A DNA stretch of 64,000 bases, taken from NCBI RefSeq assembly GCF_051903065.1, contig NZ_CP178438.1; one strand, written 5' to 3'. The notes beneath the pieces are model-generated. The model saw only the letters and a program-made list of their open reading frames with translations, was not told the DNA's origin and did not search any database. The position numbers and the translations under genes are program-made. This stretch comes from Escherichia coli (GTDB taxonomy: Bacteria; Pseudomonadota; Gammaproteobacteria; Enterobacterales; Enterobacteriaceae). This document shows, in pieces, positions 18,845 through 44,780 of the stretch; position 1 is the stretch's first letter, and each line of letters begins with the position of its first letter.

Positions 18845-18929
18845 GCCGAAGTGGCGAAATCGGTAGACGCAGTTGATTCAAAATCAACCGTAGAAATACG
18901 TGCCGGTTCGAGTCCGGCCTTCGGCACCA
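18845..18929 (+). tRNA. leuX: tRNA-Leu(CAA)
   Basis: GCCGAAGTGGCGAAATCGGTAGACGCAGTTGATTCAAAATCAACC...GGTTCGAGTCCGGCCTTCGGCACCA, 85 nt with long variable arm and encoded CCA. Confidence 0.97.
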
Positions 18930-19115: not shown

Positions 19116-20381
19116 ATGGCATTAACAGATATCAAAGTCAGAGCAGCCAAGCCAACGGATAAGCAATATAAGCTGACTGATGGTGGCGGTATGCATCTGC
19201 TTGTCCATCCAAATGGTTCTAAGTACTGGCGTTTGCAGTACCGTTATGAGGGAAAGCAAAAAATGCTGGCACTTGGGGTTTATCCTGAAATCACACTAGC
19301 GGATGCCAGAGTACGTCGTGACGAGGCGCGTAAGCTGCTTGCGAATGGCGTCGATCCGGGAGACAAAAAGAAAAATGATAAGGTTGAACAGAGTAAAGCA
19401 CGAACCTTTAAAGAAGTCGCGATTGAGTGGCATGGCACCAATAAAAAGTGGTCTGAAGATCACGCCCATCGTGTGCTAAAAAGTCTGGAAGATAATCTTT
19501 TTGCAGCGCTTGGTGAACGTAATATCGCTGAGTTAAAAACTCGAGATTTATTAGCACCCATTAAGGCCGTAGAAATGTCTGGACGTCTTGAAGTGGCCGC
19601 TCGTCTTCAGCAGCGCACTACAGCCATCATGCGCTATGCAGTGCAAAGTGGGTTAATTGATTATAACCCGGCACAAGAGATGGCTGGGGCGGTTGCTTCC
19701 TGTAATCGACAACATCGTCCCGCGCTTGAATTAAAGCGCATCCCTGAGTTGCTTACAAAAATAGATAGCTATACTGGTAGGCCGCTAACCCGATGGGCGA
19801 CAGAACTCTCTTTGCTGATCTTTATTCGGTCCAGTGAGCTGCGTTTTGCTCGTTGGTCAGAGATCGATTTCGAAGCGTCTATATGGACTATCCCACCGGA
19901 GCGGGAGCCTATTCCTGGAGTGAAACATTCCCATAGAGGCTCAAAAATGCGTACAACGCATCTAGTGCCTCTTTCAACGCAAGCTCTTGCAATTTTAAAG
20001 CAGATAAAACAGTTTTGTGGGGCCCATGACTTGATATTTATTGGTGATCACGATTCGCACAAACCCATGAGTGAGAATACGGTAAATAGTGCGTTACGGG
20101 TCATGGGGTATGATACAAAAGTAGAGGTTTGTGGTCATGGCTTTCGAACAATGGCCTGTAGTTCATTGGTCGAATCAGGTTTGTGGTCTCGTGATGCTGT
20201 TGAACGTCAGATGAGCCACATGGAGCGAAATTCAGTGAGGGCCGCGTATATCCATAAAGCAGAGCATCTGGAAGAACGCCGCTTGATGCTACAATGGTGG
20301 GCCGATTTTCTGGATGCAAACAGAGAAAAATTTATCAGTCCATTTGAATATGCAAAGATTAATAATCCATTAAAACAGTAA
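19116..20381 (+). CDS. int: P4-type tyrosine integrase
   Basis: 421-aa ORF next to tRNA; C-terminal catalytic region HGFRTMACSSL...RAAYIH. Confidence 0.9.
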   Translation: MALTDIKVRAAKPTDKQYKLTDGGGMHLLVHPNGSKYWRLQYRYEGKQKMLALGVYPEITLADARVRRDEARKLLANGVDPGDKKKNDKVEQSKARTFKEVAIEWHGTNKKWSEDHAHRVLKSLEDNLFAALGERNIAELKTRDLLAPIKAVEMSGRLEVAARLQQRTTAIMRYAVQSGLIDYNPAQEMAGAVASCNRQHRPALELKRIPELLTKIDSYTGRPLTRWATELSLLIFIRSSELRFARWSEIDFEASIWTIPPEREPIPGVKHSHRGSKMRTTHLVPLSTQALAILKQIKQFCGAHDLIFIGDHDSHKPMSENTVNSALRVMGYDTKVEVCGHGFRTMACSSLVESGLWSRDAVERQMSHMERNSVRAAYIHKAEHLEERRLMLQWWADFLDANREKFISPFEYAKINNPLKQ

Positions 20382-23455: not shown

Positions 23456-24511
23456 GGCTTTGTTGAATAAATCGAACTTTTGCTGAGTTGAAGGATCAGA
23501 TCACGCATCCTCCCGACAACACAGACCATTCCGTGGCAAAGCAAAAGTTCAGAATCACCAACTGGTCCACCTACAACAAAGCTCTCATCAACCGTGGCTC
23601 CCTCACTTTCTGGCTGGATGATGAAGCGATTCAGGCCTGGTATGAGTCGGCAACGCCTTCATCACGAGGAAGGCCCCAGCGCTATTCTGATCTCGCCATC
23701 ACCACCGTTCTGGTGATTAAACGCGTATTCCGGCTGACCCTGCGGGCTGCGCAGGGTTTTATTGATTCCATTTTTGCCCTGATGAACGTTCCGTTGCGCT
23801 GCCCGGATTACACCAGTGTCAGTAAGCGGGCAAAGTCGGTTAATGTCAGTTTCAAAACGTCCACCCGGGGTGAAATCGCACACCTGGTGATTGATTCCAC
23901 CGGGCTGAAGGTCTTTGGTGAAGGCGAATGGAAAGTCAGAAAGCACGGCAAAGAGCGCCGTCGTATCTGGCGAAAGTTGCATCTTGCTGTTGACAGCAAC
24001 ACACATGAAGTTGTCTGTGCAGACCTGTCGCTGAATAACGTCACGGACTCAGAAGCCTTCCCGGGCCTTATCCGGCAGACTCACAGAAAAATCAGGGCAG
24101 CCGCGGCAGACGGGGCTTACGATACCCGGCTCTGTCACGATGAACTGCGCCGCAAAAAAATCAGCGCGCTTATTCCTCCCCGAAAAGGAGCAGGTTACTG
24201 GCCCGGTGAGTACGCAGACCGCAACCGTGCCGTTGCTAATCAGCGGCTGAGCGGAAGCAATGCACGGTGGAAATGGACAACGGAATATAACCGTCGCTCG
24301 ATAGCGGAAACGGCAATGTACAGAATGAAGCAGTTGTTGGGAGATTCACTGACGCTGCGTGACTACGATGGTCAGGTAGCGGAAGCTATGGCCATGGTGC
24401 GTGCGTTGAACAGGATGACAAAGGCTGGGATGCCAGAAAGCGTGCGTATTGCCTGAAAATCCAGCCAGCTACAGGGTCGTTCGCACGAAATCTTATTTAT
24501 TCAACAAAGCC
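23456..24511 (+). mobile_element. IS903-like element (IS5 family)
   Basis: Terminal inverted repeats GGCTTTGTTGAATAAATC (23456) and GATTTATTCAACAAAGCC-like (to 24511); no matching flanking duplication. Confidence 0.88.
23533..24456 (+). CDS. IS903-family transposase
   Basis: VAKQKFRITNWSTYNKALINRGSLTFWLDDEAIQAWY... matches IS903/IS102 transposase as recalled; probable GTG start at 23533. Confidence 0.88.
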   Translation: MAKQKFRITNWSTYNKALINRGSLTFWLDDEAIQAWYESATPSSRGRPQRYSDLAITTVLVIKRVFRLTLRAAQGFIDSIFALMNVPLRCPDYTSVSKRAKSVNVSFKTSTRGEIAHLVIDSTGLKVFGEGEWKVRKHGKERRRIWRKLHLAVDSNTHEVVCADLSLNNVTDSEAFPGLIRQTHRKIRAAAADGAYDTRLCHDELRRKKISALIPPRKGAGYWPGEYADRNRAVANQRLSGSNARWKWTTEYNRRSIAETAMYRMKQLLGDSLTLRDYDGQVAEAMAMVRALNRMTKAGMPESVRIA

Positions 24512-25624
24512 CATACCCCTCTGAAAATCAGTCATCAACTCACCAACACATCTTCTGAAATCTGTATTAAACTTATTGCTTAAATAGATGATATAACACA
24601 TCTTCCATTGCACGGAATCAGCGAAAACTGTCATTCTGGCAATCTTAACAAGATCATTTATCGGTTAATTTTATCAGTAAACAATGGAATATCACACTGA
24701 TAAAATGAACATTCAGGGTAAGATGATAAAATTCACATAAAAAATGCTGAAGATTATTTATTTCATGCAGATAAACGATAAAATACAAGAGAGTATATTT
24801 TTCAGTGTAAGAGTCAATCGTTCATCTCCACTGACGATCACGGTCAGCACATAAACAAAGTGAGTCCTCCTGCTTAGTCATTGCGTATCAGAAACTAAAA
24901 AACAAAAGATTCTGTAAACAACGTGACATTTTTTATGACATTTCCCGAATACAGATATATCAACAAACAGTAGTCAGCGTTGAATTAATAAGTTTTACAG
25001 GGCTATACGTATCTTATAAAACCACTCAACGACCATCATCACCTGACTATTTAGCGGGAGTATCATCTGTATAAATTCCTAAATAATAACACCTGTTATT
25101 AAAATAAGAATGCTGTCAGCAGTAAATTATTAACATAACACCTGTCCACTCTATCTGTTCTTCTAACTCAACCGGCATCGAAAATATTGCCTGATTAGTG
25201 CATCATAGCCTTCTTTTTTCTTTCCCGACCATCAAAACAAATACAACATTTACAACCACACAATAAAACAAAACTAAAACAAAACTAAAACATAAGATTA
25301 ACAACACCAATCAACAGGAAAACACTGAATATTGAGGTGCCCTGTAACCTGGAGAGCGCATACGGCGCATGTGATCAACACAGCCCATTCTTTTCTGTCA
25401 TCCCCCAAATGCAGAACAAACAAGCATAACCTAATGAATATAAAATAAAATATTATTTTTCACCATCATAAAAACATCAATGTATCTTTATATAAAAACA
25501 CTGATAACATGACATAAACATTTAAAAACATAAACAAATCACAACAAAAACATTTGATAATCACTTAGTGACAAAATAAAATTGAGACGATTTTGTTATA
25601 AGAGAGGCGCCATGGAGTGAGATA

Positions 25625-26644
25625 ATGAATAACGAACAGATGCTTATCAAATGCAAAGATCCCCGTAAATGTCGGTTTTATGCTGAATATCTGAATCACA
25701 AATACCCCAATGAATTCCCTCAGTTTGCGCCTGACAACCCACAAAACTGTATCAGAAATGTTAATGCGTTTTTAAAAGAAAAGTATTGTAATACTTCAAA
25801 CAATTCTTTTGGTGTTTTTGGTTCGACTGCAGAAGAAGCTCTCAGCAAAGAAATTAATGAACTTGAAATTATTGCAGGGCAGGCAATACTGCCTGAAGAG
25901 AGTTTTCTCTGGTTGAAAACTGACGAACTTGCGACTTTCTTTACCTGGACTACTATTTATCTGTCGAAGGAAGACCATACAAATTTCCCGGAAATAAACC
26001 ATAATTCATCAGGGATAAAAAACGGAATTGAAGTCAGAAAAAGACGAACAGTTACCGATGAAACGTTAAATACTTACAAAAAAAGTAACCTTCCGGATAA
26101 TCCATCATCCCATAACGAACGAATAAAAGTAATCATTTTATATTTTGATTCCTGTCATTCTTTAATTAATAAAAATGCAAAAAGCATATACCTCGAGGAA
26201 CTCAGGCAGACGTGGCTTAAAAATAAAAGCGCTTGTCAAAAGTTTAAGTGGCTCCTTCCTGACGATGATGAAATGTGTCAGTGGTTCTGGACAAGACTGA
26301 AACAAAAACAGGATGAAACACATCCGGTACATAACCCGGTGACCCGGTGGTTCATACCATCTTCAACGAAAGAATATTATCTTGCCTCTCTCGTCGCCTT
26401 TGCTTTATGGAAAGAGGCACCTGATACCATTGAACTGTTCAGAACACGCATAAATCATGCCTGGCATCAAAAAAAACAAAAAGACAAATATCGGAATGAT
26501 GGTAAAAAGGCTATTAATATACATATAAGAAGCAATGCGAAAGAAATGCTTGATGAACTCAGAACTGTTTACGGTCTGAGAACAGGAGAGTTTTTTGAAA
26601 TGCTGATTACAGAAAAATATCTTGAACACAAGCGAAGGAAGTAA
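25625..26644 (+). CDS. Hypothetical protein, AT-rich, lysine-rich C-terminus
   Basis: 339-aa ORF preceded by GAGAGG RBS-like sequence; no recognisable motif. Confidence 0.5.
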   Translation: MNNEQMLIKCKDPRKCRFYAEYLNHKYPNEFPQFAPDNPQNCIRNVNAFLKEKYCNTSNNSFGVFGSTAEEALSKEINELEIIAGQAILPEESFLWLKTDELATFFTWTTIYLSKEDHTNFPEINHNSSGIKNGIEVRKRRTVTDETLNTYKKSNLPDNPSSHNERIKVIILYFDSCHSLINKNAKSIYLEELRQTWLKNKSACQKFKWLLPDDDEMCQWFWTRLKQKQDETHPVHNPVTRWFIPSSTKEYYLASLVAFALWKEAPDTIELFRTRINHAWHQKKQKDKYRNDGKKAINIHIRSNAKEMLDELRTVYGLRTGEFFEMLITEKYLEHKRRK

Positions 26645-26753
26645 TTCATTACCTGTTACATTCTAAATAATCTCAGACAGATATTATCTCCGTGAATCCC
26701 CCGCCACCTTTCCGGTGCGCGGGGTTTTGTCTTTTTTCACCGGGAATACATGT

Positions 26754-27581
26754 ATGAATCCGTCTGATGCCATTGAGGCAATTGAAAAACCGCTCTCCTC
26801 CCTGCCTTACTCACTTTCCCGTCACATCCTGGAACATCTGCGCAAACTCACCAGCCACGAACCCGTGATTGGCATTATGGGGAAAAGCGGGGCCGGTAAA
26901 TCCTCACTCTGTAATGCACTGTTTCAGGGGGAGGTCACCCCGGTCAGTGATGTTCACGCCGGCACCCGGGAAGTGCAGCGCTTCCGTCTGAGTGGCCATG
27001 GTCACAGCATGGTTATCACTGACCTGCCCGGGGTGGGCGAGAGCCGTGACAGGGATGCAGAGTATGAAGCCCTGTACCGTAACATTCTGCCTGAACTTGA
27101 CCTGGTACTGTGGCTGATTAAAGCCGATGACCGTGCCTTGTCTGTGGATGAGTATTTCTGGCGACACATTCTGCACCGGGGACATCAGCAGGTGCTGTTT
27201 GTGGTGACGCAGGCCGATAAAACGGAGCCCTGCCATGAATGGGATATGGCCGGTATTCAGCCTTCTCCCGCACAGGCACAGAACATTCGCGAAAAAACGG
27301 AGGCGGTATTCCGTCTGTTCCGGCCCGTACATCCGGTTGTGGCCGTATCGGCTCGCACCGGCTGGGAACTGGATACGCTGGTCAGTGCGCTCATGACAGC
27401 GCTTCCCGACCATGCCGCCAGTCCCCTGATGACCCGCCTGCAGGACGAGCTGCGCACGGAATCTGTCCGCGCTCAGGCCCGTGAACAGTTTACCGGTGCG
27501 GTGGACCGGATATTTGACACGGCGGAGAGCGTCTGTATTGCCTCTGTTGCCCGCGCGGTATGGAACTGGATTTTCTTCTGA
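26754..27581 (+). CDS. YeeP/YkfA/YfjP-family GTPase
   Basis: P-loop GIMGKSGAGKSSL, DLPG switch motif, TQADK; likely start MNPSDAIEAIE at 26754. Confidence 0.8.
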   Translation: MNPSDAIEAIEKPLSSLPYSLSRHILEHLRKLTSHEPVIGIMGKSGAGKSSLCNALFQGEVTPVSDVHAGTREVQRFRLSGHGHSMVITDLPGVGESRDRDAEYEALYRNILPELDLVLWLIKADDRALSVDEYFWRHILHRGHQQVLFVVTQADKTEPCHEWDMAGIQPSPAQAQNIREKTEAVFRLFRPVHPVVAVSARTGWELDTLVSALMTALPDHAASPLMTRLQDELRTESVRAQAREQFTGAVDRIFDTAESVCIASVARAVWNWIFF

Positions 27582-27780
27582 ACCCGGTGGTGATGCACCA
27601 GACTCTTGTTACAGATTTTTAACTCCATGAAAACACAATGCAAACGCAGCCATACCCGGGTTGTCCCCTTGTGTTGTGTTTTCCAGATTAATAGAATGCA
27701 TCGATCGTTATAAACGATCGTTTGTGGTAAATGACCTCCTCCGTGGTTGTCATGAAAATGCGTCTCAGGAAGGTTAAATA

Positions 27781-30165
27781 ATGCACGAAAAGAACATCGC
27801 CCTGCTTTGTGATGAAGCCGACCGACTTTTGCAACTGAACATTAATCTGCTCCGGCAAATGGTTGATGAACCGGATGTGTTATCTGACAGTAAGAACGAA
27901 AACAGACTGCTTTTCGATAAACAGAAAGCACTGAAAAGAATTGAGGAGCTGGAGGGCGAACAAATCAAAACCGCCCGCAGGGAGATGGTGCTGGCTGTTG
28001 TCGGCACGATGAAAGCAGGTAAATCAACTACCATCAACGCCATTGTGGGGCAGGAAATTCTGCCTAACCGTAACCGCCCCATGACCTCTGTACCGACGCT
28101 CATCCGCCACGTTCCCGGAAAAACTGAGCCGGTCCTCCATCTGGAACATATTCAGCCCGTCCGCAATTTATTAAGCACACTGCAACAAAAACTCGACACC
28201 CCGGCAGGACAGCAAGTCGCACAGACCCTGCAGCAAACCGGGGATACCTGCGAACTGCTGGATATTCTGGCAAATGATGGCTGGCTCAAAAATGAATACC
28301 ACGGGGAGGAGGAAATCTTTACCGGACTGGCATCGTTAAACGATCTGGTTCGCCTTGCTGCGGCAATGGGGAGTGAGTTTCCTTTTGATGAATACGCAGA
28401 AGTGCAGAAACTGCCGGTGATCGACGTGGAATTCAGCCATCTGGTGGGGATGGATGCATGCCAGGGAACACTCACACTGCTGGATACCCCCGGCCCTAAT
28501 GAGGCCGGACAACCGCAGATGGAAGTGATGATGCGGGATCAACTGCAGAAAGCCTCTGCGGTGCTGGCGGTGATGGATTACACCCAGATGAACTCAAAAG
28601 CGGATGAAGACGTCCGTAAAGAGCTTAATGCCATTGCTGACGTATCAGCCGGCCGCCTGTTTGTGCTGGTCAATAAATTTGATGAGAAAGACCGCAATGG
28701 CGATGGGGCAGATGCCGTACGCCAGAAAGTTCCGGCAATGCTGAACAGTGATGTGCTGCCCGCCTCCCGCGTTTATCCAGGCTCATCACGTCAGGCGTAC
28801 CTGGCTAACCGTGCGCTTCATGAGTTACGGAAAAACGGAACCCTTCCTGTTGATGAAGCCTGGGTCGATGATTTTGTCAGGGAAGCCTTCGGTCGCATGA
28901 AAAAAGAATACGTCTGTAAAGACAGTGAAATGGCAACCGAAGGGGCGACAGACCTGTGGGAAGGTTCACTTATCGATCAACTGATAACGGAAGTCATACA
29001 GAGCTCCCATTCCAGAGCGGCGGCACTGGCGGTTGATTCTGCCGCCGCAAAACTGATGCAGAATGCGGAAAATGTCAGCGAATATCTGTCATTACGCCAT
29101 CAGGGGCTACAGCAAAGCATTCAGTCACTGCAGGCGCATATCTCCAGCCTGCTGGCGGATATCCGGGAAATCGCGGACTGTCAGGAGCAGGTGACCGCAG
29201 ATGTCAGAATGGCTATGGAGGAGATCGATACTAAAACCCGGGAATTACTGACGGGGGTCTGCACCTCACTGGAAGAGGAGCTGAATGACTATTTCAGAAG
29301 CGGTAAACGCAAAGAACAGCAAATGCTGGAGGAAGAAAATTCAGCGCAGCCCCGGGAGAGAAACGCATTCGCTTTCTTTCACGATATTTTCGGAACCGGA
29401 AATCAGCATGACAGGATGCGGGACTTTGATCCGGACAGCCCCGAAATAAAATTCAGTGATCGCAGGGAAGCCCTTGAACTGATGACGCAAATCGAATCGA
29501 CCGTGACCAGCCTGCACCGTGAGGCTGAAGCACAGTTCCGTCCTGAACTGGAAAAAATCGTCAGGGGTATTGAAACAGGTTTTCGTGGTACGGCCCTGTA
29601 CGCCACAGAAAATATTGCCGGACGCATCAATGCCCGTCTGGAGGATGAAGGTTTCACTGTAAAAATCAGTTTTCCGGCAGTCAGCCAGTTACAGACCCGG
29701 CTCGCAGTAAAAACAAATCTGAGCGCGCTTATGGAGGAAAGAACGGAGACCGTCACTCGTCGCTGTCGACAGGATGGTGTCTGGGGTACGCTTTGTCGAT
29801 GGGCAAACACCAGTGACTGGGGCTGGAAAGAGTACAGTGTGGATGTGAGCCGCAGCGTGATCAATATCAACAAGGTCAGAGAGGAAGTGATGTCACTGAC
29901 CCGGGCATATTTCGGGGAGCTGCAGGCATCCATTGAGCAGGATATTAACCAGCCCGTCCGCCAGGAAATCGATGCCTTTTTCTGCGCATTCAGGGAGAAA
30001 GTTGAACAACTGCGTAACACGCTGATTCAGAGCTCTGAAGATCGTAAACGCGATCAGCAGGCGCAGGAACGGCTTACCGGGCGACTTCAGGCATTAAATG
30101 AAAGGGTTCCTGAGCTCATTACTGACAGTAAGGCGCTGAGGGAAGAGCTGGAGACAATGCTGTGA
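27781..30165 (+). CDS. Dynamin-like GTPase, CrfC/YjdA paralog
   Basis: 794 aa; G1 motif VVGTMKAGKSTTINAIVG, LDTPGPNE, VLVNKFDEKD; long coiled-coil C-terminal half; RBS AGGAAGG upstream. Confidence 0.85.
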   Translation: MHEKNIALLCDEADRLLQLNINLLRQMVDEPDVLSDSKNENRLLFDKQKALKRIEELEGEQIKTARREMVLAVVGTMKAGKSTTINAIVGQEILPNRNRPMTSVPTLIRHVPGKTEPVLHLEHIQPVRNLLSTLQQKLDTPAGQQVAQTLQQTGDTCELLDILANDGWLKNEYHGEEEIFTGLASLNDLVRLAAAMGSEFPFDEYAEVQKLPVIDVEFSHLVGMDACQGTLTLLDTPGPNEAGQPQMEVMMRDQLQKASAVLAVMDYTQMNSKADEDVRKELNAIADVSAGRLFVLVNKFDEKDRNGDGADAVRQKVPAMLNSDVLPASRVYPGSSRQAYLANRALHELRKNGTLPVDEAWVDDFVREAFGRMKKEYVCKDSEMATEGATDLWEGSLIDQLITEVIQSSHSRAAALAVDSAAAKLMQNAENVSEYLSLRHQGLQQSIQSLQAHISSLLADIREIADCQEQVTADVRMAMEEIDTKTRELLTGVCTSLEEELNDYFRSGKRKEQQMLEEENSAQPRERNAFAFFHDIFGTGNQHDRMRDFDPDSPEIKFSDRREALELMTQIESTVTSLHREAEAQFRPELEKIVRGIETGFRGTALYATENIAGRINARLEDEGFTVKISFPAVSQLQTRLAVKTNLSALMEERTETVTRRCRQDGVWGTLCRWANTSDWGWKEYSVDVSRSVININKVREEVMSLTRAYFGELQASIEQDINQPVRQEIDAFFCAFREKVEQLRNTLIQSSEDRKRDQQAQERLTGRLQALNERVPELITDSKALREELETML

Positions 30166-31067
30166 CTTCACCATTTATTCAACAAATTGCTGATAACCGG
30201 GTATGTCAGGTACTCACCTGTCTTCCTGAAAAATTTGTGGTTGATTTCGCAAACGGAATCGATGTTGCACAGGAGCATATCCGCACGGCCGGAGAGCGCA
30301 CGTTCTTCCGGCGTTTAAAAGAGGGGATGACCGGCGAAGGCGCTGCACGGCAGAATGCCATCAATGCTTCGCTTGCACAGGGCGTTGAGGCGTCCCTGCG
30401 CTGGCTGACGGAGCTGACAACGTCACTTGCCACCACAAACTACGCGATTACCCGGGTAAACGACAGGGTCAGTTCACTGGTCAGTGATACTGCCAGGCTG
30501 GCGCATTATTCGGCTGACACGCGGGAGCAGTTACTCACCCTGGCCGATCAGGTTCACCAGAAACTGAATCATCTTGAAGAAAAACTCCACCGTGTTGACC
30601 AGGTTCAGCGGGCGCAGTTACATCTTGAGCAGATATTCTCATGGTGGAGCGCCGGGCGATATGCGTCATTTTCCCCTGCCGGACGTTGTTATGTGGCACT
30701 TGAAGAGCTTCGCTGGGGCGCGTTTGGTGATGTGATACGCCAGGGCGAAACAGGCCAGGTTAACCAGCTACTGGATATTCTCAGACATAAAGCATTAACG
30801 CAGATGGCACAGGAGAGTGGCGGTAGTGCAACCGTGCGTCTGAACACTCTGGACTGGCTTGGTGGTCAGGGCCGGGAGCAGGCAGATAACGAGTGGCATG
30901 ACGCGATTAACTGGCTGGGGGACTGGTGCAGTGAAGAGCAGCATCCGGTGATCTGGTCAACCACGCAGGCTGCAGAACACTTACCGGTTCGCATGCCTCG
31001 CCTCTGCTCTGCAGAACGCCTCTCTGAAAGTATGGTCGATGAAATATTTCAGAAGGGGGCAGCATGA
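30162..31067 (+). CDS. YjcZ-like protein (partner of the dynamin-like GTPase)
   Basis: GTG start overlapping upstream stop; N-terminus resembles K-12 YjcZ as recalled (LPEKFVVDFANGIDV.QEHIRTAGERTFFRRLK). Confidence 0.7.
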   Translation: MTSPFIQQIADNRVCQVLTCLPEKFVVDFANGIDVAQEHIRTAGERTFFRRLKEGMTGEGAARQNAINASLAQGVEASLRWLTELTTSLATTNYAITRVNDRVSSLVSDTARLAHYSADTREQLLTLADQVHQKLNHLEEKLHRVDQVQRAQLHLEQIFSWWSAGRYASFSPAGRCYVALEELRWGAFGDVIRQGETGQVNQLLDILRHKALTQMAQESGGSATVRLNTLDWLGGQGREQADNEWHDAINWLGDWCSEEQHPVIWSTTQAAEHLPVRMPRLCSAERLSESMVDEIFQKGAA

Positions 31068-32134
31068 GTACAGAAATGAAAACGGGGCTGGTGCTGTCCG
31101 GCGGCGGGGCGGTGGGCGCTTATCAGGCAGGTGTGGTTAAGGCACTGGCAGAGTGTGGCACACAGATCAGCATGGTTTCAGGGGCCAGCATTGGCGCATT
31201 CAATGGTGCCATTATCGCGGCCTCTCCCGATCTGTCAGAAGCAGCCGCACGCCTGGAGGCGCTCTGGAAGCATCTGGGGAATAATCAGGTGCTGTCGGTA
31301 AACCGATCGGTTTACTTTTCATTGCTGAAAAAAATGGTTCAGGCCATGAACCTCTGCCAGATCCCCGGACGTGCAGGAGCACTGCTTACGACACTTCTTC
31401 GCCATATATCGATAATCAACGGCTTCGACAATCCGATGGCTCAGCCGCTGTTGTCAGATGAGCCTCTGACAGCGCTGTTGGATCATTATCTTGATACTGA
31501 TGCTCTGGCAGACGGGCTACCGCTGTATGTGTCGCTGTACCCCACAGAAGGGGGCATGCAGGATATTATTGACTGCATTCGTGCTGAACTGGGTGCCGGA
31601 ACCACGAAAAACGCCGTTTTTCAGCATATCCAGAGCCTGCCCCGCGGACAGCAGAAAGAGGCTCTGCTTGCGTCAGCCGCGCTGCCCCTGCTGTTCCGTC
31701 CCCGTGAGGTTCAGGGGACAATGTTCGGTGATGGTGGTATGGGAGGATGGCGAAATATGCAGGGAAATACCCCTGTGACGCCTCTGGTCGATGCCGGATG
31801 CAATATGGTGATTGTGACGCATCTGAGTGACGGTTCTTTATGGGATCGCCAGGCTTTTCCGGACACCACAATCCTTGAGATCCGTCCCCGGAAAAGGCTG
31901 AAATATGCAGGTGATGGTGGCAACAGCGGCGGTCTGCTCAGTTTCACGTTGGCACATACCGACGCCTGGCGTCAGCAGGGCTATGAAGACACGATGCTGA
32001 CGATGGAGCATATCCGGAAACCGCTGGCAGCACGTCAGGTACTGTCCCGGTCAGAAACGGTGTTGCAGAAAAGTCTGGAGATAACGGAAGAGGCAGATTT
32101 GGCACTGAGAAACGCGATGGCCCGGATTAAATAA
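31064..32134 (+). CDS. Patatin-like phospholipase
   Basis: ATGA start/stop overlap with upstream gene; Gly-rich loop LSGGGAVGAYQAG, nucleophile elbow GASIG (GxSxG), DGG motif in FGDGGMGG. Confidence 0.85.
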   Translation: MSTEMKTGLVLSGGGAVGAYQAGVVKALAECGTQISMVSGASIGAFNGAIIAASPDLSEAAARLEALWKHLGNNQVLSVNRSVYFSLLKKMVQAMNLCQIPGRAGALLTTLLRHISIINGFDNPMAQPLLSDEPLTALLDHYLDTDALADGLPLYVSLYPTEGGMQDIIDCIRAELGAGTTKNAVFQHIQSLPRGQQKEALLASAALPLLFRPREVQGTMFGDGGMGGWRNMQGNTPVTPLVDAGCNMVIVTHLSDGSLWDRQAFPDTTILEIRPRKRLKYAGDGGNSGGLLSFTLAHTDAWRQQGYEDTMLTMEHIRKPLAARQVLSRSETVLQKSLEITEEADLALRNAMARIK

Positions 32135-32464
32135 AGACGCCCCAAAGAAACGCCACCGCCTGTGGTGGTGTTTTTCCTGTCTGGTGTTATTGAAAATATT
32201 TTCAGACATATATTACCTGAGAGAAAGTTTTACCCCTCATCTGTCAATTCACTCACTGGAAATTTAATTATGAAATTACCTGTAAAGTTATTAATGAGCC
32301 TTATATCTCTGGTAAGCGTTATTGCACGTGCCGGGGAATATAAAAATTACAGCCGGGATGAAATAAAATACTGGCGATATACATCATACAAGGGGTGGAA
32401 ACTTCCGGAAGGTTTCACTGATGAGAAATTTTCCAGCGCCATTTACAACGGAAGAATATTTACA

Positions 32465-32953
32465 ATGAAACGTTTACATACCCTTATGTTATTTCTGGCG
32501 GTTCTGTTCACGGGCTTTAACTTTAACGCAGAAGCGGCTACCGTAAAACAAGCTCTTAGTTGTAACCCAGAAGCCTGGGCTGAACAACCTGGAGCGTGTC
32601 CATCAACGTACGAGTTGTACGAAGGTGACGCTACCTACAAAGCCGCTATCGACAAAGCATTAAAACCGGTCGGACTGAGCGGCATGTTCGGTAAAGGCGG
32701 CTATATGGATGGCCCTGGTGGAGGTATCACGCCAGTAAACATTAACGGTACAGTCTGGTTCCAGGGCGACGGTTGCAAAGCCAATACCTGCGGCTGGGAC
32801 TTTATCGTAACACTCTATAACCCAAAAACCCATGAAGTTGTTGGCTACCGTTACTTTGGTTTAGATGACCCGGCCTACCTGGTTTGGTTCGGTGAAATTG
32901 GCGTGCATGAATTCGCGTATCTGGTGAAAAACTACGTAGCTGCGGTTAACTAA
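32465..32953 (+). CDS. Secreted protein, possibly Ivy-like (lysozyme-inhibitor fold); alternative upstream in-frame start at 32270
   Basis: Signal peptide MKRLHTLMLFLAVLFTGFNFNAEA; GDGCKANTCGWDF loop resembling the Ivy CKPHDCG loop; second signal-peptide-like segment in frame upstream. Confidence 0.4.
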   Translation: MKRLHTLMLFLAVLFTGFNFNAEAATVKQALSCNPEAWAEQPGACPSTYELYEGDATYKAAIDKALKPVGLSGMFGKGGYMDGPGGGITPVNINGTVWFQGDGCKANTCGWDFIVTLYNPKTHEVVGYRYFGLDDPAYLVWFGEIGVHEFAYLVKNYVAAVN

Positions 32954-32968
32954 TTTAAGGAGTCTATC

Positions 32969-33181
32969 ATGAAAACTTTTATCAAAACTTTACTCGTTGC
33001 TGTAACTATTCTGTTCTCTGTCTTCGCTACTGCGAAACAAGTAAAACTGCCAAATAACATCAAATACGTTAATACTACAGAAGCGTTTTCCTGTACCGAA
33101 ATTGACGGTATGAATTGCCAGACAAAGAATCAGTTCAACTATAAAGATAACAGCTATGTGGTGATGCTGCCAACTTACTGA
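32969..33181 (+). pseudogene. Small secreted-protein gene truncated by IS1 (last 6 codons and stop lie in the IS1 terminal repeat)
   Basis: Signal peptide MKTFIKTLLVAVTILFSVFATA; frame runs into GGTGATGCTGCCAACTTACTGA of IS1. Confidence 0.5.
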
Positions 33182-33214
33182 TTTAGTGTATGATGGTGTT
33201 TTTGAGGTGCTCCA

Positions 33215-33490
33215 GTGGCTTCTGTTTCTATCAGCTGTCCCTCCTGTTCAGCTACTGAAGGCGTGGTGCGTAACGGTAAAAGCACTGCCGGACATCAGCG
33301 CTATCTCTGCTCTCACTGCCGTAAAACATGGCAACTGCAGTTCACTTACACCGCTTCTCAACCCGGTACGCACCAGAAAATCATTGATATGGCCATGAAT
33401 GGCGTTGGATGCCGGGCAACTGCCCGCATTATGGGCGTTGGCCTCAACACGGTTTTACGTCACTTAAAAAACTCAGGCCGCAGTCGGTAA
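33215..33490 (+). CDS. insA: IS1 InsA
   Basis: 91-aa [21 protein letters not shown]... Confidence 0.9.
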
Positions 33491-33912
33491 CCTCGCGCAT
33501 ACAGCTGGGCAGTGACGTCATCGTCTGCGCGGAAATGGACGAACAGTGGGGATACGTCGGGGCTAAATCGCGCCAGCGCTGGCTGTTTTACGCGTATGAC
33601 AGGCTCCGGAAGACGGTTGTTGCGCACGTATTCGGTGAACGCACTATGGCGACGCTGGGGCGTCTTATGAGCCTGCTGTCACCCTTTGACGTGGTGATAT
33701 GGATGACGGATGGCTGGCCGCTGTATGAATCCCGCCTGAAGGGAAAGCTGCACGTAATCAGCAAGCGATATACGCAGCGAATTGAGCGGCATAACCTGAA
33801 TCTGAGGCAGCACCTGGCACGGCTGGGACGGAAGTCGCTGTCGTTCTCAAAATCGGTGGAGCTGCATGACAAAGTCATCGGGCATTATCTGAACATAAAA
33901 CACTATCAATAA
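33409..33912 (+). CDS. insB: IS1 transposase InsB
   Basis: 167-aa [24 protein letters not shown]... Confidence 0.9.
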
Positions 33913-34216
33913 GTTGGAGTCATTACCCACTTTTTGAAAGCAACCAGATGATAGGGTAAAGATAAGTGCTGTGTTCGGCGGTAAATTCTCAGTACCACCC
34001 ATTGAAAATCGAACGGGGAAACGGGAAATTTGGAGCAAAGTGCTGGTATGCAAGGGATGTGTGGATCTCTGTGACGGGAAAACTACGGGGATATTGCGGG
34101 AAAGGGACGGGGGAAAGGTTCTATGTTGATGCTGATCAGATCTTTTCTAGTTTGCACTTGCTCATACCGTGAACAGCGTTAGTGTGGTGAGCATCATTTG
34201 CCAAAAGGGTTAGACA

Positions 34217-35440
34217 ATGAATGCCATACAGCAGCATGCTGCAGCGCTTCTGGATAGTGTTGCACGATGGAATGAAGTGACGACTCTGGCTAAATTACGC
34301 TATCAGGCCGAGCTGGCACCTGATTTCAGCCTCATGGACTGGCTGAAGAATGACGAACTGGCCCTTTCACGCTATCTACGATTTTTGCTTTCTCCTGATG
34401 AAACTCATGGTCAGTCATCACTGTTTCTAAAGGGATTTCTCTCCCTCATTGAAAAGAGTGGGCACGATAGCCCTATAACCACCGGAGGTAGCCATCATAA
34501 AGTCAGGGTTGATTATGAAGTCACTATTGAAAACAGAAGAAAGATAGACCTGTTGATGACATCTTCAGAGGGTTTTATTGCTATCGAAAATAAGCCATGG
34601 GCAGCAGATCAGGAAAATCAGTTACGGGATTATGCATTATGGCTGAACAAATGTGAAAGACCATGGAAGTTAATTTATTTATGCAATCAGGATCCGGGAG
34701 AGTGGACTCTTCCTGGCAATACTCCGGAAGCACTGAAGCAACATATCCTAACGATATCCTGGCATGAAGTCGTCAAATGGCTGAACGAATGTTTATTGCA
34801 TGTTCGGGCAGGTGCGGTCAAAATATTTGTTGAATCATTGATTAAATATATCAACCAGTCAATTAATGGTGAGTTCATAATGGATAATAGTCGTGAGTTG
34901 TCAGAAATCATCCGCAAGGATAGCTACTCTATAGAATCGGCATTTATGATTTTTAACCAGATGAATGAGGTTCGCAACGATTTATTCAAAGAGTTTATTT
35001 CTGATTTAAATGCCAGTTTCATTAATCATCCTTATTCTATTGAAACCTCGGATGGGGACCTATCGAAACGTGGGGCTAATTTTTATATCCCATTAAGCCC
35101 GGATGGTAATTACTCTTTGTGCTGGGAGTTTGAATATTCAGGTTATTATGGTTTATTTTTTGGCATTTCGGGAGTGAGTCTGGTTGAAGGTCAATCTGCA
35201 AAAATAGCTGCTGCCATGTCAGAGATATTTCCACACACGCAGGGTAAATCCAGCGAATACTGGTCATGGTGGAGCAGGGGTTTAGATCTGCAAGGGAAAA
35301 ATCGCATTCCTAGAGACTGGGGTAATGATGGAGCGGTTTGGGCGAAGCTCCGTGAGCGTGATGCAGACAGCATTTTTGCAGCCACCCGTGAAGCGATTCT
35401 GGCCGTTCATGAAAAGCTGGATATGGACTTATTGCGTTAA
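34217..35440 (+). CDS. Hypothetical protein with PD-(D/E)xK nuclease-like motif
   Basis: 407 aa; KIDLLMTSSEGFIAIENKPW fits the D-x(n)-E-x-K restriction-endonuclease-fold pattern around residues 110-126; no other recognisable domain. Confidence 0.5.
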   Translation: MNAIQQHAAALLDSVARWNEVTTLAKLRYQAELAPDFSLMDWLKNDELALSRYLRFLLSPDETHGQSSLFLKGFLSLIEKSGHDSPITTGGSHHKVRVDYEVTIENRRKIDLLMTSSEGFIAIENKPWAADQENQLRDYALWLNKCERPWKLIYLCNQDPGEWTLPGNTPEALKQHILTISWHEVVKWLNECLLHVRAGAVKIFVESLIKYINQSINGEFIMDNSRELSEIIRKDSYSIESAFMIFNQMNEVRNDLFKEFISDLNASFINHPYSIETSDGDLSKRGANFYIPLSPDGNYSLCWEFEYSGYYGLFFGISGVSLVEGQSAKIAAAMSEIFPHTQGKSSEYWSWWSRGLDLQGKNRIPRDWGNDGAVWAKLRERDADSIFAATREAILAVHEKLDMDLLR

Positions 35441-35484
35441 TTATTTGATCGTTTTCAGAAAATGCCTGAAGTGAGAGAGGGGAC

Positions 35485-36021
35485 ATGGATAATATCGAAG
35501 ACAGCGTTCCGCTTGGTATACAGCAGTTGATTGATGCTGAGAACGACGGGAAGATTTGGCTAAACAGTATTCCGGTCGTGAACGAGCTGTTGGATGATTT
35601 GCAGCGCGTGGCGTGGCATGTGCGAATTCAACAGGCAAAACATGAGATAACGGCGCACAAAAGCGCGTATTTGGTGAATGCCAAAATCAGCGAACTGGTG
35701 CAGATCTTCGAGGGGCGGAATCCGGCTTATGCTGTCCTGCCGTGGAATACCGATCCCCACCAGATGAAAGCATATATTACGAAACAGGACGACTACTGGG
35801 GAGACGATGCCGACGTTACCCATGATGATGCCTTGCCGCGATTACTCGATTGCTGTGCCGCTGCGGCAACTTTTGGCGTTGAGTCGCTATTGCCAGACTG
35901 CCCTGAGATATTCCGCAGTAGCAAAGAACAAGTTCTCGCTGACCTGTCTGAGCAGCGCTATCTGGCTGGCGCATTACTGATGGGGGTGCCAGTAGATATA
36001 TTTATCCAGATGGTGGGCTAA
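35485..36021 (+). CDS. Hypothetical protein (178 aa), 45 bp downstream of the PD-(D/E)xK gene
   Basis: ORF with GAGAGAGG RBS-like sequence upstream; no recognised motif. Confidence 0.45.
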   Translation: MDNIEDSVPLGIQQLIDAENDGKIWLNSIPVVNELLDDLQRVAWHVRIQQAKHEITAHKSAYLVNAKISELVQIFEGRNPAYAVLPWNTDPHQMKAYITKQDDYWGDDADVTHDDALPRLLDCCAAAATFGVESLLPDCPEIFRSSKEQVLADLSEQRYLAGALLMGVPVDIFIQMVG

Positions 36022-36454
36022 ATAAACCCTAAGACCGCTACACTTTTGCCAATCCAAGTTTACTTCCGGTTTCCATGAAGTGGTGAACCTTTTTCAACAG
36101 CAGCACATTGAACGACATTGGTGATTGCGAGTTATCGTGTCATGAAAAGCTTGCCATAGTCTGCTCAGTAATTGAATAACTGTAATCCTGTGGCTTTTGG
36201 CTATATCAGTTGGAGTAAGCTGGTTGAAGGAGCGCTCATAACCGATTTTATTGAGAACCGTGAACAAGGCCGGGAATCCTTTCCGGGATTGTGAGGGGTT
36301 GAGCAAGCCTACGGGCGCGGTAGTGTTTTTTACACCAGCCCGGAACAGTTTGGAAACCAGAGCTTCGTTTAGGGTTGTGTCTATTGTTGGTGGGTAAGAT
36401 CATTTTTTGTGTTTAGTCAGCCAGCATCATATGAATTTAACCGAGTGAGCAGCA

Positions 36455-37300
36455 ATGGGGATTTTCAATAGAATCAAAAAGGCTCTTGGTTTGGAAGTGC
36501 GAAAGGGGTTTCGACGCTGGTCCACTTCTGAGCTTGAAGAGAAGAAGGCTTATCTAGAAAACAAGTCCGCAGAAGAGTTCACTGCAAAAGATCACCATCT
36601 GTCGGCAGAATGGGTCATTCAACGTTATTTACCAGTAGGTGAAGAGCCTACACCCGAACAATGGTCAGAGGTCTCTGGTGACATTCAGCAGAAAATTGAC
36701 ATCAATTTAAATAAGGCTGCTGCGGGTGAACTCCTTAAAACTGAGTATATGCAACCCGCTCGCTATACCCTCACCAAGGACGACTTCCTAAGTGATATAG
36801 TGCCCGCTTTCTCAAGGTTTGATTGGCTACCAAATCCTCATTCAAAGGATTGGCAAGGCCGCGAAATCTGGGAATCGCTCTATGAATTTACTCAGCCGTA
36901 TTCTTTTAAGCATGGTGAAGCAAAAGATGCTCTGATGAGTATCTGTGACACCTACCAGGCTATGCACCTAGTAATGGATCTAGCGCGGACATACTCTCAA
37001 ATTTGCCAAGCGCAGCTTGATGGCTCGACGAGGATTAAGGTGGTTTGTTCTGGCAAGCATTGTGATGACTGCATGACTCTTGTTGGCACGAAACTGGGCG
37101 TTGATGAACTGCTAGCTACATTTAAGAATGGAGTTCCAAAATTTCCTCATCCTTTGCATTATGAAGATGAAGTTCGTTGGTGCCCGGCACCATTTCTATC
37201 GCCGGAGAGCCCACTTAAGGATGACGATGATCCAGAGTTTCATGCCTTTTTAGTTGATCTGTTTGATGGACCAGAGAAGCACAAAGACAAATCAAATTGA
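36455..37300 (+). CDS. Hypothetical protein (281 aa) with Cys cluster CSGKHCDDC
   Basis: ORF with acidic C-terminus; possible metal-binding Cys cluster; no recognised family. Confidence 0.45.
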   Translation: MGIFNRIKKALGLEVRKGFRRWSTSELEEKKAYLENKSAEEFTAKDHHLSAEWVIQRYLPVGEEPTPEQWSEVSGDIQQKIDINLNKAAAGELLKTEYMQPARYTLTKDDFLSDIVPAFSRFDWLPNPHSKDWQGREIWESLYEFTQPYSFKHGEAKDALMSICDTYQAMHLVMDLARTYSQICQAQLDGSTRIKVVCSGKHCDDCMTLVGTKLGVDELLATFKNGVPKFPHPLHYEDEVRWCPAPFLSPESPLKDDDDPEFHAFLVDLFDGPEKHKDKSN

Positions 37301-37389
37301 AATCTACGTCAGGAATAGAGCCAATAGAAATGTTGAAGGGGAGGCCAGATCAAATGCAATTATGCCCTTATCTGGGTAGTGACTCCAAC

Positions 37390-41223: not shown

Positions 41224-44780
<3,557 letters not shown>

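What the first reader, a model, noticed from the sequence alone, without database searches (positions are those of the whole stretch)
25625..27581. YeeP-type GTPase module head where Ag43 would be expected is followed by the dynamin operon instead
In K-12 CP4-44 the YeeP-family GTPase gene is followed by flu (antigen 43) and then yeeR-yeeS-yeeT-cbeA-cbtA (established knowledge, from memory). Here the first YeeP-family GTPase (26754-27581) is instead followed 200 bp later by the dynamin/YjcZ/patatin operon, and is preceded by an AT-rich 339-aa ORF of unknown function. This suggests a conserved landing position where cargo is exchanged; the GTPase and the unknown ORF could be part of the same functional unit.
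Basis: partly seen in the sequence, partly recalled or inferred. Interest (0 to 1): 0.5.

Follow-up and report, generated by a model that had tools for sequence, protein, structure and literature searches.

The report
Island GTPase head with agn43-type switch
The two genes are the ordinary, conserved "head" of a common E. coli genomic-island backbone, but the short gap after the GTPase carries a copy of the antigen-43 on/off (Dam/OxyR) switch that here sits in front of a dynamin-like/patatin operon, and in this strain that switch has lost 19 bases.

Summary
There is a 339-aa AT-rich ORF (25625-26644), a YeeP-type GTPase (26754-27581) and, 199 bp later, a translationally coupled dynamin-like/RdcB-like/patatin operon (27781-32134).

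GTPase directly followed by the dynamin operon occurs in 1976 of 5426 complete E. coli genomes. Ag43 is not replaced: in 635 genomes Ag43/Cah sits between the GTPase and the same operon. Across Enterobacterales the stretch after the GTPase is variable, so a cargo zone exists, but I found no dedicated insertion site.

The 339-aa ORF belongs to a widespread uncharacterised island-backbone family with a C-terminal ribbon-helix-helix. It often lies next to the GTPase (26 of 76 loci). A terminator-like hairpin seen in several genera separates them, and each gene also occurs without the other.

The new point is the intergenic region. It holds the agn43-type promoter and operator: TAGAAT plus three GATC sites inside a 15-16/20 OxyR-consensus match. 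This ~60-bp core is conserved in front of four different cargo types in five species. The window allele, shared with three sequenced strains, has a 19-bp deletion that removes one GATC and lowers the OxyR match to 12/20. I predict phase-variable control of the operon in general and a crippled, probably always-on switch here. None of this is tested experimentally.

The parts
24460..25624 (.). 1.17-kb ORF-free, AT-rich (33% GC, A-rich on the + strand) region upstream of the 339-aa ORF. It contains a promoter-like site, TTGATA-17-TAAAAT, at 25554-25582.
   Evidence: No ORF longer than 45 aa. Composition. Promoter scan 10/12. ORF-free gaps of 1.1-1.6 kb occupy the same position in Edwardsiella, Rahnella and Yersinia. 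Only about 110 bp next to the ORF is similar across genera. No Rfam match.
25625..26644 (+). 339-aa island-backbone protein: a helical N-terminal part with no close solved-structure match (about 290 aa) plus a C-terminal ribbon-helix-helix DNA-binding domain. RefSeq calls close relatives 'transcriptional regulator'.
26679..26737 (+). Intergenic element: palindrome AGATATTATCT (26679-26689), a GC-rich hairpin (26698-26724) and a U run (26725-26737), which together look like an intrinsic terminator between the two genes.
   Evidence: RNAfold -23.4 kcal/mol, z -2.7. Terminator scan hit. The motif AGAYAGATATTAY is present in 20 of 30 loci from several genera. A GC hairpin of differing sequence followed by a T run is seen in most of those printed, read by eye and not scored.
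26754..27581 (+). YeeP/YfjP-family GTPase, 275 aa. This allele has a 15-aa in-frame deletion near the C-terminus.
27669..27697 (+). Promoter homologous to the agn43 (flu) promoter: -35 TTGTGT (27669-27674), 17-bp spacer, -10 TAGAAT (27692-27697).
   Evidence: Read from the sequence. TAATAGAAT is identical in 8 of the 9 aligned sequences; the E. tarda copy reads TAATAGATG. In K-12 the annotated 5' end of isrC, upstream of flu, falls 6 nt after the same TAGAAT, on the first GATC.
27698..27725 (+). Truncated agn43-type Dam/OxyR operator. Two GATC sites remain (27703-27706 and 27716-27719). A 19-bp deletion between direct repeats ATCGATCGTTA has removed GATC-I.
   Evidence: Alignments A2 and A5. 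The window, NCTC9699 and GDSC2BY4G have two GATC sites and an OxyR-consensus match of 12/20. Eight other alleles have three GATC sites (spacing 18 and 13) and 15-16/20. No 37-mer in the window reaches 16/20.
27781..32134 (+). Cargo operon: dynamin-like protein (27781-30165), RdcB/YjcZ-like protein (30162-31067) and patatin-like phospholipase (31064-32134), with overlapping stop and start codons.

Best explanation
Positions 25625-27581 are the head of the conserved rightward backbone of a CP4-44/CP4-57-type island integrated at tRNA-Leu.

The first gene encodes a ribbon-helix-helix DNA-binding protein of an uncharacterised island-backbone family. I infer that it regulates transcription of the island. 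It is followed by a terminator-like hairpin that recurs in several genera.

The second gene encodes a small YeeP/YfjP-type GTPase. It has an Era/EngB-like G domain flanked by helices that superpose on dynamin-like and IRG proteins, and a hydrophobic C-terminal tip. Its role is unknown. It appears dispensable for the cargo, because many alleles linked to the same operon are broken.

Downstream lies a variable cargo zone. In Escherichia this zone begins with a ~60-bp regulatory cassette homologous to the agn43 promoter and operator: -10 TAGAAT, with the transcription start at about the first GATC, and three GATC sites inside an OxyR-type site. By analogy with agn43, OxyR bound to the unmethylated GATC sites would repress transcription and block Dam, and Dam-methylated GATC sites would exclude OxyR. 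The result would be heritable ON and OFF states for whatever gene follows: Ag43, the dynamin-like/RdcB-like/patatin operon, or both in tandem.

The window allele has lost 19 bp of the operator, including one GATC and half of the OxyR site, while the promoter is intact. I predict that the operon here is no longer properly phase-variable and is most likely constitutively ON.

Shown: gene identities, synteny, genome frequencies, conservation of the cassette, and the deletion. Inferred: OxyR/Dam control, the consequence of the deletion, and the roles of the RHH protein and the GTPase.
For: Genes and island context.

Frequencies in 5426 complete E. coli genomes: GTPase-switch-dynamin 1976, GTPase-Ag43 3419, Ag43/Cah-dynamin 635.

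Cassette: 41 of 55 core positions are identical between the K-12 flu and Nissle dynamin versions. The three GATC sites with 18-19/13 spacing and the adjacent promoter motif are conserved ahead of Ag43-type autotransporters (E. coli, E. tarda), the dynamin operon (E. coli, E. albertii), a 310-aa-family ORF (Citrobacter braakii, C. amalonaticus) and a 215-aa-family ORF (Enterobacter wuhouensis), while the flanks diverge. All 8 sampled full-length dynamin-type alleles keep three GATC sites and score 15-16/20 against the OxyR consensus. That compares with 14/20 for K-12 flu, and no 37-mer in the 64-kb window reaches 16.

[quoted passage not shown] In PMC4872104 the agn43 region also drives a heterologous fusion.

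One switch per locus: no promoter or terminator consensus lies between Ag43 and the dynamin gene in RM14721, and only one switch is present there.

Deletion allele: present in three independent complete genomes, so it is not an assembly error.

RHH protein and GTPase.
Against: There is no experimental evidence for this locus: no methylation state, OxyR binding, transcription start or expression data.

The GATC-I to GATC-II spacing is 18 bp in the dynamin-type switch and 19 bp in the agn43 alleles examined, which could change OxyR phasing.

The effect of losing GATC-I and about two helical turns of the operator is predicted only from a consensus score.

Most cross-species loci (about 70 of 80) have no switch after the GTPase, so the cassette is not an intrinsic part of the GTPase module.

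Ag43-type autotransporters in YfjP-type islands have no such switch.

The functions proposed for the RHH protein and the GTPase rest on fold and position only.

Subscription-journal literature could not be searched, so the switch ahead of the dynamin operon may already be described.
Confidence: 0.6

Rival explanations
1. The GATC cluster ahead of the dynamin operon is an inert scar. An ancestral GTPase-switch-Ag43-dynamin island lost Ag43 by deletion, which left the agn43 promoter region behind with no regulatory role. The operon would then be expressed from another promoter or by read-through.
For: Both arrangements exist, and only one switch is present in either. The GTPase-side half of the intergenic region is homologous between the Ag43 and dynamin versions.
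Against: The ~60-bp core is the best conserved part of the intergenic region across genera and cargo types, while its flanks diverge. All three GATC sites and a 15-16/20 OxyR match are kept in 8 of 8 sampled alleles, including E. albertii. The leader between the switch and the dynamin ATG is not derived from either end of the Ag43 gene region in RM14721. No other promoter consensus lies between the GTPase and the dynamin gene.
Confidence: 0.2
2. The YeeP-type GTPase and the downstream dynamin-like protein form a functional pair, as in bacterial dynamin pairs such as LeoA/LeoBC or Cj-DLP1/2. Under this reading the GTPase belongs to the dynamin system, not to the island backbone.
Against: 79 of 80 cross-species GTPase loci have no dynamin gene. 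GTPase alleles next to intact dynamin operons are frameshifted (23CRST032, EA7, GPT21-004) or lack 146 residues of the G domain (Nissle). A separate promoter and operator lies between the two genes. The top structural match is the generic EngB G domain.
Confidence: 0.08
3. The position after the GTPase is a dedicated integration hotspot served by a site-specific recombinase, in the manner of an integron, and cassettes are exchanged there. This is the strong form of the first reader's idea.
For: Cargo varies between the conserved GTPase and the conserved DUF932/antirestriction/RadC genes. Homology breaks fall at the gene boundaries.
Against: No repeat, att-like site or target duplication was evident at the junctions in the alignments made. 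Variable genes also lie after DUF932/YfjR in YfjP-type islands, so there is more than one variable zone. A small set of accessory genes recurs in different combinations, which fits ordinary homologous recombination between related islands. No recombinase gene is linked to the slot.
Confidence: 0.07

Closest known systems
agn43 (flu) Dam/OxyR phase-variation switch of E. coli K-12, in the yeeP'-isrC-flu intergenic region of CP4-44
   Same: Same location, immediately downstream of a YeeP-family GTPase gene. Same TAATAGAAT -10 region. Three GATC sites at nearly the same spacing in the common dynamin-type allele. 41 of 55 core positions are identical. Comparable or better match to the OxyR consensus.
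   Different: It drives a cytoplasmic/membrane dynamin-like, RdcB-like and patatin operon instead of an autotransporter adhesin. The leader is about 78 nt rather than the roughly 220 nt (first GATC to flu ATG) seen in K-12. GATC-I to GATC-II spacing is 18 bp rather than 19. The window allele lacks GATC-I and 19 bp of the operator. Dam/OxyR dependence is untested.
Salmonella Dam/OxyR phase-variable loci (gtr operons, opvAB/STM2209-2208)
   Same: Horizontally acquired loci in which GATC sites lie inside OxyR sites, giving bistable expression of non-adhesin cargo (PMC3350482, listed; otherwise established knowledge).
   Different: Different promoter and operator architecture and no sequence homology was tested here. 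In opvAB OxyR acts as an activator with four GATC sites (from memory).
CP4-44, CP4-57 and CP4-6 cryptic elements and PAI backbones carrying YeeP/YfjP/YkfA, DUF932, KlcA-type antirestriction, RadC and CbtA/CbeA
   Same: Same gene families in the same order. YeeP/NgrB is described as part of this module on islands of STEC and UPEC 536 (PMC6174562).
   Different: K-12 has no homologue of the 339-aa gene next to its GTPases, and YfjH is unrelated. In the window the module downstream of the operon is broken by IS1.
RdcA/RdcB (YjdA/YjcZ; YjdA is also called CrfC), the GTPase system that activates diguanylate cyclase DgcE in E. coli K-12
   Same: The dynamin-like protein aligns over its full length with the CrfC/YjdA model (570 bits). 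The second gene is annotated as RdcB family. The gene order is the same (PMC6510439, listed).
   Different: The score is far below the 1146-bit equivalog cutoff, so it is a paralogue. It has an additional patatin phospholipase gene, is island-borne, and is preceded by a phase-variation-type operator.
LeoABC / Eleos dynamin-like defence or secretion system
   Same: Island-borne bacterial dynamin-like GTPases. The YeeP-type GTPase model resembles LeoA structurally.
   Different: PADLOC matches are weak (LeoBC E 3.6e-5 for the dynamin, with no stretch passing on its own), and the gene composition differs.

Membership tests
agn43-type Dam/OxyR phase-variation switch | Sigma-70 promoter with the operator starting at or just after the transcription start | tested here: met
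   -35 TTGTGT, 17-bp spacer, -10 TAGAAT at 27669-27697. TAATAGAAT is identical in 8 of 9 homologues (TAATAGATG in E. tarda). The annotated K-12 isrC 5' end lies 6 nt after the same TAGAAT. This rests on homology only; no transcription start was mapped at this locus.
agn43-type Dam/OxyR phase-variation switch | Three GATC sites with about 19 and 13 bp spacing inside the operator | tested here: not met
   The window allele has only two GATC sites (27703 and 27716, spacing 13) because of a 19-bp deletion. The common allele of the same locus has three, with spacing 18 and 13, in 8 of 8 sampled genomes.
agn43-type Dam/OxyR phase-variation switch | OxyR-binding sequence that overlaps the GATC sites | tested here: not met
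   Match to ATAGnTnnnAnCTAT-N7-ATAGnTnnnAnCTAT: window allele 12/20, which is background level (51 such sites in the window). Common allele 15-16/20. K-12 flu 14/20. This is a consensus score, not a binding assay.
agn43-type Dam/OxyR phase-variation switch | Heritable ON/OFF states with differential GATC methylation that depend on dam and oxyR | not testable with these tools
   Requires single-molecule methylation data and reporter genetics.
YeeP/YfjP/YkfA-family island GTPase | TRAFAC G domain with an intact P-loop, DxxG and (N/T)QxD motifs | tested here: met
YeeP/YfjP/YkfA-family island GTPase | Sequence relationship to the K-12 family members | tested here: met
   96.9% DNA identity to the yeeP pseudogene. 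47% protein identity to YfjP, E 3e-90.
YeeP/YfjP/YkfA-family island GTPase | Position upstream of the DUF932 / antirestriction / RadC / DUF987 / CbeA-CbtA array | tested here: met
   Met in the near-identical NCTC9699 island and in relatives and in most of the 80 cross-species loci. In the window itself the array is cut off by IS1 after 33.2 kb.
YeeP/YfjP/YkfA-family island GTPase | GTP binding and hydrolysis | not testable with these tools
   Biochemical assay needed. This allele also lacks 15 C-terminal-region residues.
Ribbon-helix-helix (CopG/RepB-RCR_reg-like) regulators | RHH fold and sequence signature | tested here: inconclusive
RdcA/RdcB (YjdA/YjcZ) system | Equivalog-level match to CrfC/YjdA | tested here: not met
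   570 bits against a curated cutoff of 1146. It is a paralogue with an added patatin gene.
Known anti-phage defence systems (PADLOC) | Significant match of the component proteins to the models of a defined system | tested here: not met
   Only weak, generic matches: LeoBC, phospholipase effector and NsnC, E 3e-5 to 5e-3.

The most novel reading that the evidence does not exclude
A ~60-bp agn43-type Dam/OxyR epigenetic switch may be a portable expression cassette that sits at the entrance of the cargo zone behind YeeP-family GTPase genes. It would impose heritable ON/OFF expression on whatever follows it. That includes a dynamin-like/RdcB-like/patatin (membrane-remodelling or c-di-GMP-linked) operon in about 36% of complete E. 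coli genomes, among them Nissle 1917, and unrelated small genes in Citrobacter and Enterobacter. Natural deletion alleles such as the one in this window would be locked variants. If so, the set of Dam/OxyR phase-variable loci in E. coli is larger than Ag43, and a third of strains would be bistable for an intracellular membrane-active system.
Probability: 0.5. Interest if true: 0.6.

Novelty: new member of a known kind. Interest (0 to 1): 0.42.

Why it matters
As originally stated, the finding is an ordinary piece of island mosaicism: the gene order is annotated in thousands of genomes.

What would matter is the regulatory cassette. Ag43 is the one textbook Dam/OxyR phase-variable locus of E. 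coli (from my own knowledge of the field). If the same switch governs a dynamin-like/RdcB-like/patatin operon in a third of strains, including probiotic and pathogenic ones, clonal populations would be split into cells with and without a membrane-active, possibly biofilm- or c-di-GMP-linked or phage-related system.

That gives a handle on the unknown function of the operon, by comparing ON and OFF subpopulations. It also provides natural 2-GATC deletion alleles as built-in controls.

The work further defines the 339-aa protein as a widespread, uncharacterised backbone gene of tRNA-integrated islands in Gammaproteobacteria.

Tried and rejected
- **K-12 YfjH as a homologue of the 339-aa ORF:** rejected. 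hhalign probability is 0.4%.
- **Nissle 366-aa ORF upstream of its GTPase, and the window's divergent 376-aa ORF at 55580-56710, as 339-aa-family members:** no hit.
- **NCBIfam, PADLOC, PHROGs and Pfam on the 339-aa ORF:** nothing significant.
- **PDB sequence search with the family profile:** only a weak RHH hit.
- **Dynamin operon as a known defence system:** not supported by PADLOC.
- **Rfam on 24400-27800 at E<=1:** no match.
- **Rfam isrC hit at 41332-41454:** I first suspected a displaced yeeP-flu intergenic remnant. It lies inside an IS3-family orfA and is unrelated.
- **RNAalifold on the 339-ORF/GTPase intergenic element:** no compensatory changes. The alignment was not structure-aware, so the terminator claim rests on per-sequence folds.
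- **Tracing a clean Ag43 insertion or deletion:** the leaders on the dynamin side differ between the two arrangements, so no junction could be reconstructed.
- **Literature searches:** dynamin + OxyR + GATC + phase variation returned no paper. Dynamin + patatin + E. coli + genomic island returned an island catalogue that mentions the genes only in passing. Antigen 43 + dynamin returned papers whose titles and abstracts are unrelated; I did not open them. The key agn43 paper of Wallecha et al. 2002 is not held, so statements on which GATC sites are essential remain from memory.
Full report
**What is there**

The window is E. coli DNA. Positions 24500-33000 match an island next to tRNA-Leu in strain GDSC2BY4G at 99.9%, and the same module in NCTC9699 at 100%. 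In the window the tRNA lies at 18845-18926 and the integrase gene at 19116-20381.

- a 339-aa ORF at 25625-26644, in a stretch of 35-42% GC;
- a GTPase gene whose RefSeq start is the ATG at 26754 (275 aa);
- after a 199-bp gap, three genes with overlapping stop and start codons. These encode a 794-aa dynamin-family protein, an RdcB/YjcZ-family protein and a patatin-like phospholipase with intact catalytic motifs.

The GTPase has an MMR_HSR1-type G domain. Its DNA is 96.9% identical to the K-12 yeeP pseudogene, and the protein is 47% identical to YfjP.

**Is the arrangement unusual?**

No. The 193-bp spacer between the GTPase and the dynamin gene has full-length homologues in 1983 of 5426 complete E. 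coli genomes. A junction probe spanning the GTPase 3' end, the spacer and the dynamin 5' end is covered at 80% or more in 1976 genomes. Sampled examples are Nissle 1917 and a tellurite-resistance island of strain 2011C_3361.

The GTPase-Ag43 junction is found in 3419 genomes. An Ag43/Cah-dynamin junction is found in 635 genomes. In RM14721 the order is 339-aa gene, GTPase, Ag43, dynamin, RdcB, patatin, DUF932, antirestriction, RadC, YeeT, CbeA, CbtA.

The dynamin operon therefore does not take the place of Ag43. Ag43 is an optional gene between the GTPase and the operon. Most genomes carry several such islands: the median is two matching places per genome.

**Is there a cargo position?**

I scanned one genome per species for GTPase relatives and obtained 80 loci from Escherichia, Citrobacter, Klebsiella, Enterobacter, Salmonella, Yersinia, Serratia, Photorhabdus, Hafnia and other genera. 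I labelled their ORFs by BLAST against reference genes.

The backbone of GTPase, DUF932, antirestriction, RadC, DUF987 and CbeA/CbtA recurs. What lies between these genes varies. The first gene after the GTPase is:
- DUF932/YfjQ in 36 loci;
- an unknown 233-aa family in 23;
- YfjR in 5;
- other genes in the rest;
- the dynamin gene only in E. albertii.

In YfjP-type islands the variable genes, including Ag43-type autotransporters, come after YfjQ-YfjR rather than after the GTPase.

The region is therefore a mosaic with more than one variable zone and a limited repertoire of accessory genes. I did not search for repeats, att-like sites or target duplications, and none was evident in the alignments. 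Between the window and RM14721, homology stops at the GTPase stop codon and resumes 4 bp before the dynamin ATG. It does not support a dedicated landing site.

**The 339-aa ORF**

It has no match in NCBIfam, PADLOC or PHROGs, and only a marginal Pfam hit to the ribbon-helix-helix family RepB-RCR_reg at its C-terminus. An exhaustive HMMER search found 305 cluster representatives, mostly 290-340 aa long. Of 77 aligned members, 29 match PF10723 at E<=0.1.

The genomic context is informative:
- In Edwardsiella tarda, Rahnella and Yersinia kristensenii, homologues at 48-58% identity lie about 100 bp upstream of a YeeP-type GTPase. They follow a 1.1-1.6-kb ORF-free AT-rich gap and divergent YagK/YfjJ and AlpA genes.
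- In the 80-locus survey, a family member is adjacent to the GTPase in 26 of 76 loci.
- More distant members occupy the same backbone position without any GTPase. One small element may consist of little more than an integrase, AlpA, a 250-aa ORF and this gene; its left boundary was not determined.

I conclude that it is an island-backbone DNA-binding protein, probably a regulator, and that it is more basal to the element than the GTPase.

Between it and the GTPase lies the palindrome AGATATTATCT, then a GC-rich hairpin and a U run (-23.4 kcal/mol, z -2.7). The motif recurs in 20 of 30 loci. Most of the sequences printed also show a GC hairpin of differing sequence followed by a T run, read by eye and not scored. 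RNAalifold gave no formal covariation support. The two genes are syntenic but are probably not a simple co-transcribed pair.

**The GTPase**

The window allele lacks 15 residues through an in-frame deletion between SV(A/V)R repeats. Elsewhere the gene is frequently broken even though the dynamin operon next to it is intact:
- K-12: pseudogene;
- RM14721: frameshift;
- Nissle: 146-residue deletion;
- 23CRST032, EA7 and GPT21-004: frameshifts.

This argues against an obligatory partnership with the dynamin-like protein. Its function remains unknown.

**The intergenic region, the most interesting result**

The spacer reads …TTGTGT-17 bp-TAGAAT-GCATC-GATC-GTTATAAAC-GATC-GTTTG…. Aligned with the yeeP-flu regions of K-12 and RM14721, it is homologous from the GTPase stop through the agn43 promoter and operator, and then diverges.

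The common dynamin-type allele (Nissle, 2011C_3361, E. albertii and five further sampled genomes) carries TTAATAGAAT followed by three GATC sites spaced 18 and 13 bp apart. In agn43 the spacing is 19 and 13 bp. Of the 55 core positions, 41 are identical to K-12 flu.

Scored against the OxyR consensus ATAGnTnnnAnCTAT-N7-ATAGnTnnnAnCTAT, the dynamin-type operator reaches 15-16 of 20 specified positions across the three GATC sites. K-12 flu reaches 14, and no 37-mer anywhere in the 64-kb window reaches 16.

In K-12 the annotated 5' end of isrC, which lies immediately upstream of flu, falls 6 nt after the same TAGAAT, on the first GATC. This is consistent with TAGAAT being the -10 element and the operator lying just downstream of the start.

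The same cassette follows the GTPase ahead of different genes in other species:
- an AIDA/Ag43-type autotransporter in E. tarda;
- a small ORF of the '310-aa' family in Citrobacter braakii and C. amalonaticus;
- a '215-aa'-family ORF in Enterobacter wuhouensis.

In a nine-sequence alignment only the ~60-bp core is conserved, and the flanks are not. Conversely, Ag43-type genes in YfjP-type islands have no such switch.

The agn43 mechanism is established. OxyR binds the unmethylated GATC sites, represses transcription and blocks Dam; methylation excludes OxyR; the states are heritable (PMC13337833). [quoted passage not shown] The region also works when fused to a foreign gene (PMC4872104).

I therefore infer that the dynamin-like operon is phase-variable in the many strains carrying the 3-GATC allele. 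I put the probability at roughly 0.6-0.65. I found no open-access paper that links this operon to OxyR/Dam control.

**The window allele**

Here, and in NCTC9699, GDSC2BY4G and 50EVA, 19 bp between two direct copies of ATCGATCGTTA are missing. This removes GATC-I and about two helical turns of the operator. The promoter is left intact, and the second GATC moves to the position of the first. The OxyR-consensus score falls to 12/20, which is background level (51 such sites in the window).

The most likely consequence is loss of OxyR repression, giving constitutive expression. An altered switching rate is the alternative. This is a prediction only.

**Comparison with what is known, and verdict**

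- The gene pair is a member of the known CP4-44/CP4-57-type island backbone. YeeP/NgrB is described as part of this module on STEC and UPEC islands (PMC6174562).
- The dynamin-like protein is a paralogue, not an equivalog, of CrfC/YjdA (RdcA): 570 bits against a cutoff of 1146.
- The operon is not a recognised defence system.
- The switch is a new candidate member of the Dam/OxyR phase-variation class.
- The window copy fails two defining features of that class, namely three GATC sites and an OxyR-consensus site. I therefore describe it as a degenerate derivative, not a functional member.

As written, the finding is ordinary. With the switch it becomes a moderately interesting and directly testable hypothesis.

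Noticed in passing
window 26679-26737: Between the 339-aa ORF and the GTPase lie the palindrome AGATATTATCT, a GC-rich hairpin and a U run. The motif AGAYAGATATTAY recurs in 20 of 30 loci from several genera, and most of those printed have their own GC hairpin followed by a T run. In many loci an outer TYTCAG/CTGAGR complementarity encloses the hairpin and appears to overlap the GTPase Shine-Dalgarno sequence.
   Followed up: partly
window 24460-25624: A 1.17-kb ORF-free, 33% GC, A-rich stretch lies upstream of the 339-aa ORF. ORF-free gaps of similar length (1.1-1.6 kb) occupy the same position in Edwardsiella, Rahnella and Yersinia islands. Only about 110 bp next to the ORF is similar across genera. 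There is no Rfam match, and the role of the stretch is unexplained.
   Followed up: partly
window 27540-27581 (deletion point near 27559): The GTPase allele has a 15-aa in-frame deletion between SV(A/V)R repeats in its C-terminal helices, compared with intact 290-aa alleles. Other E. coli alleles are frameshifted or carry large internal deletions, so the gene seems to be decaying in Escherichia.
   Followed up: yes
window 56895-60634: A second island module in the same window has a YeeP/YfjP-family GTPase (39% identical to the first). It is followed by an HTH regulator, a hypothetical gene, DUF905 and DUF932. It has no 3-GATC switch, and the gene upstream of it is a divergent 376-aa ORF, not a 339-aa-family gene.
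   Followed up: partly
window 41332-41454: There is a strong Rfam match to 'isrC' (150 bits). It lies inside the orfA of an IS3-family element, not in a yeeP-flu-type intergenic region, so this Rfam family appears to model IS-derived sequence.
   Followed up: yes
L021 5855; L047 15489; L084 7109: Further GATC triplets with agn43-like spacing occur in Yersinia similis (with TTGATAGAAT upstream), Lelliottia and an Enterobacter MAG. They are not adjacent to the GTPase and lie next to unannotated genes. They may be additional Dam-dependent switches on these islands.
   Followed up: no
L063, L072, L093, L097, L098 (about 12.6-16 kb in each locus): In YfjP-type islands of Kluyvera, Enterobacter, Buttiauxella, Citrobacter and Phytobacter, Ag43/AIDA-type autotransporter genes follow YfjR directly with no 3-GATC operator. 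The adhesin and the switch are therefore separable in both directions.
   Followed up: partly
window 33200-48200: Downstream of the operon the island is heavily rearranged. It holds IS1 copies flanking a PDDEXK-like gene (34217-35440), a YadA-like adhesin gene (38258-39580), IS110 and IS3 fragments, a group II intron with ltrA (42691-44304), and a second AlpA/YagK-YfjJ set further on.
   Followed up: no
L001 1-12669 (NCTC9699): In NCTC9699 the same 339-aa/GTPase/dynamin module lies downstream of a complete BREX type 1 system rather than next to tRNA-Leu. The module therefore travels between different island contexts.
   Followed up: no
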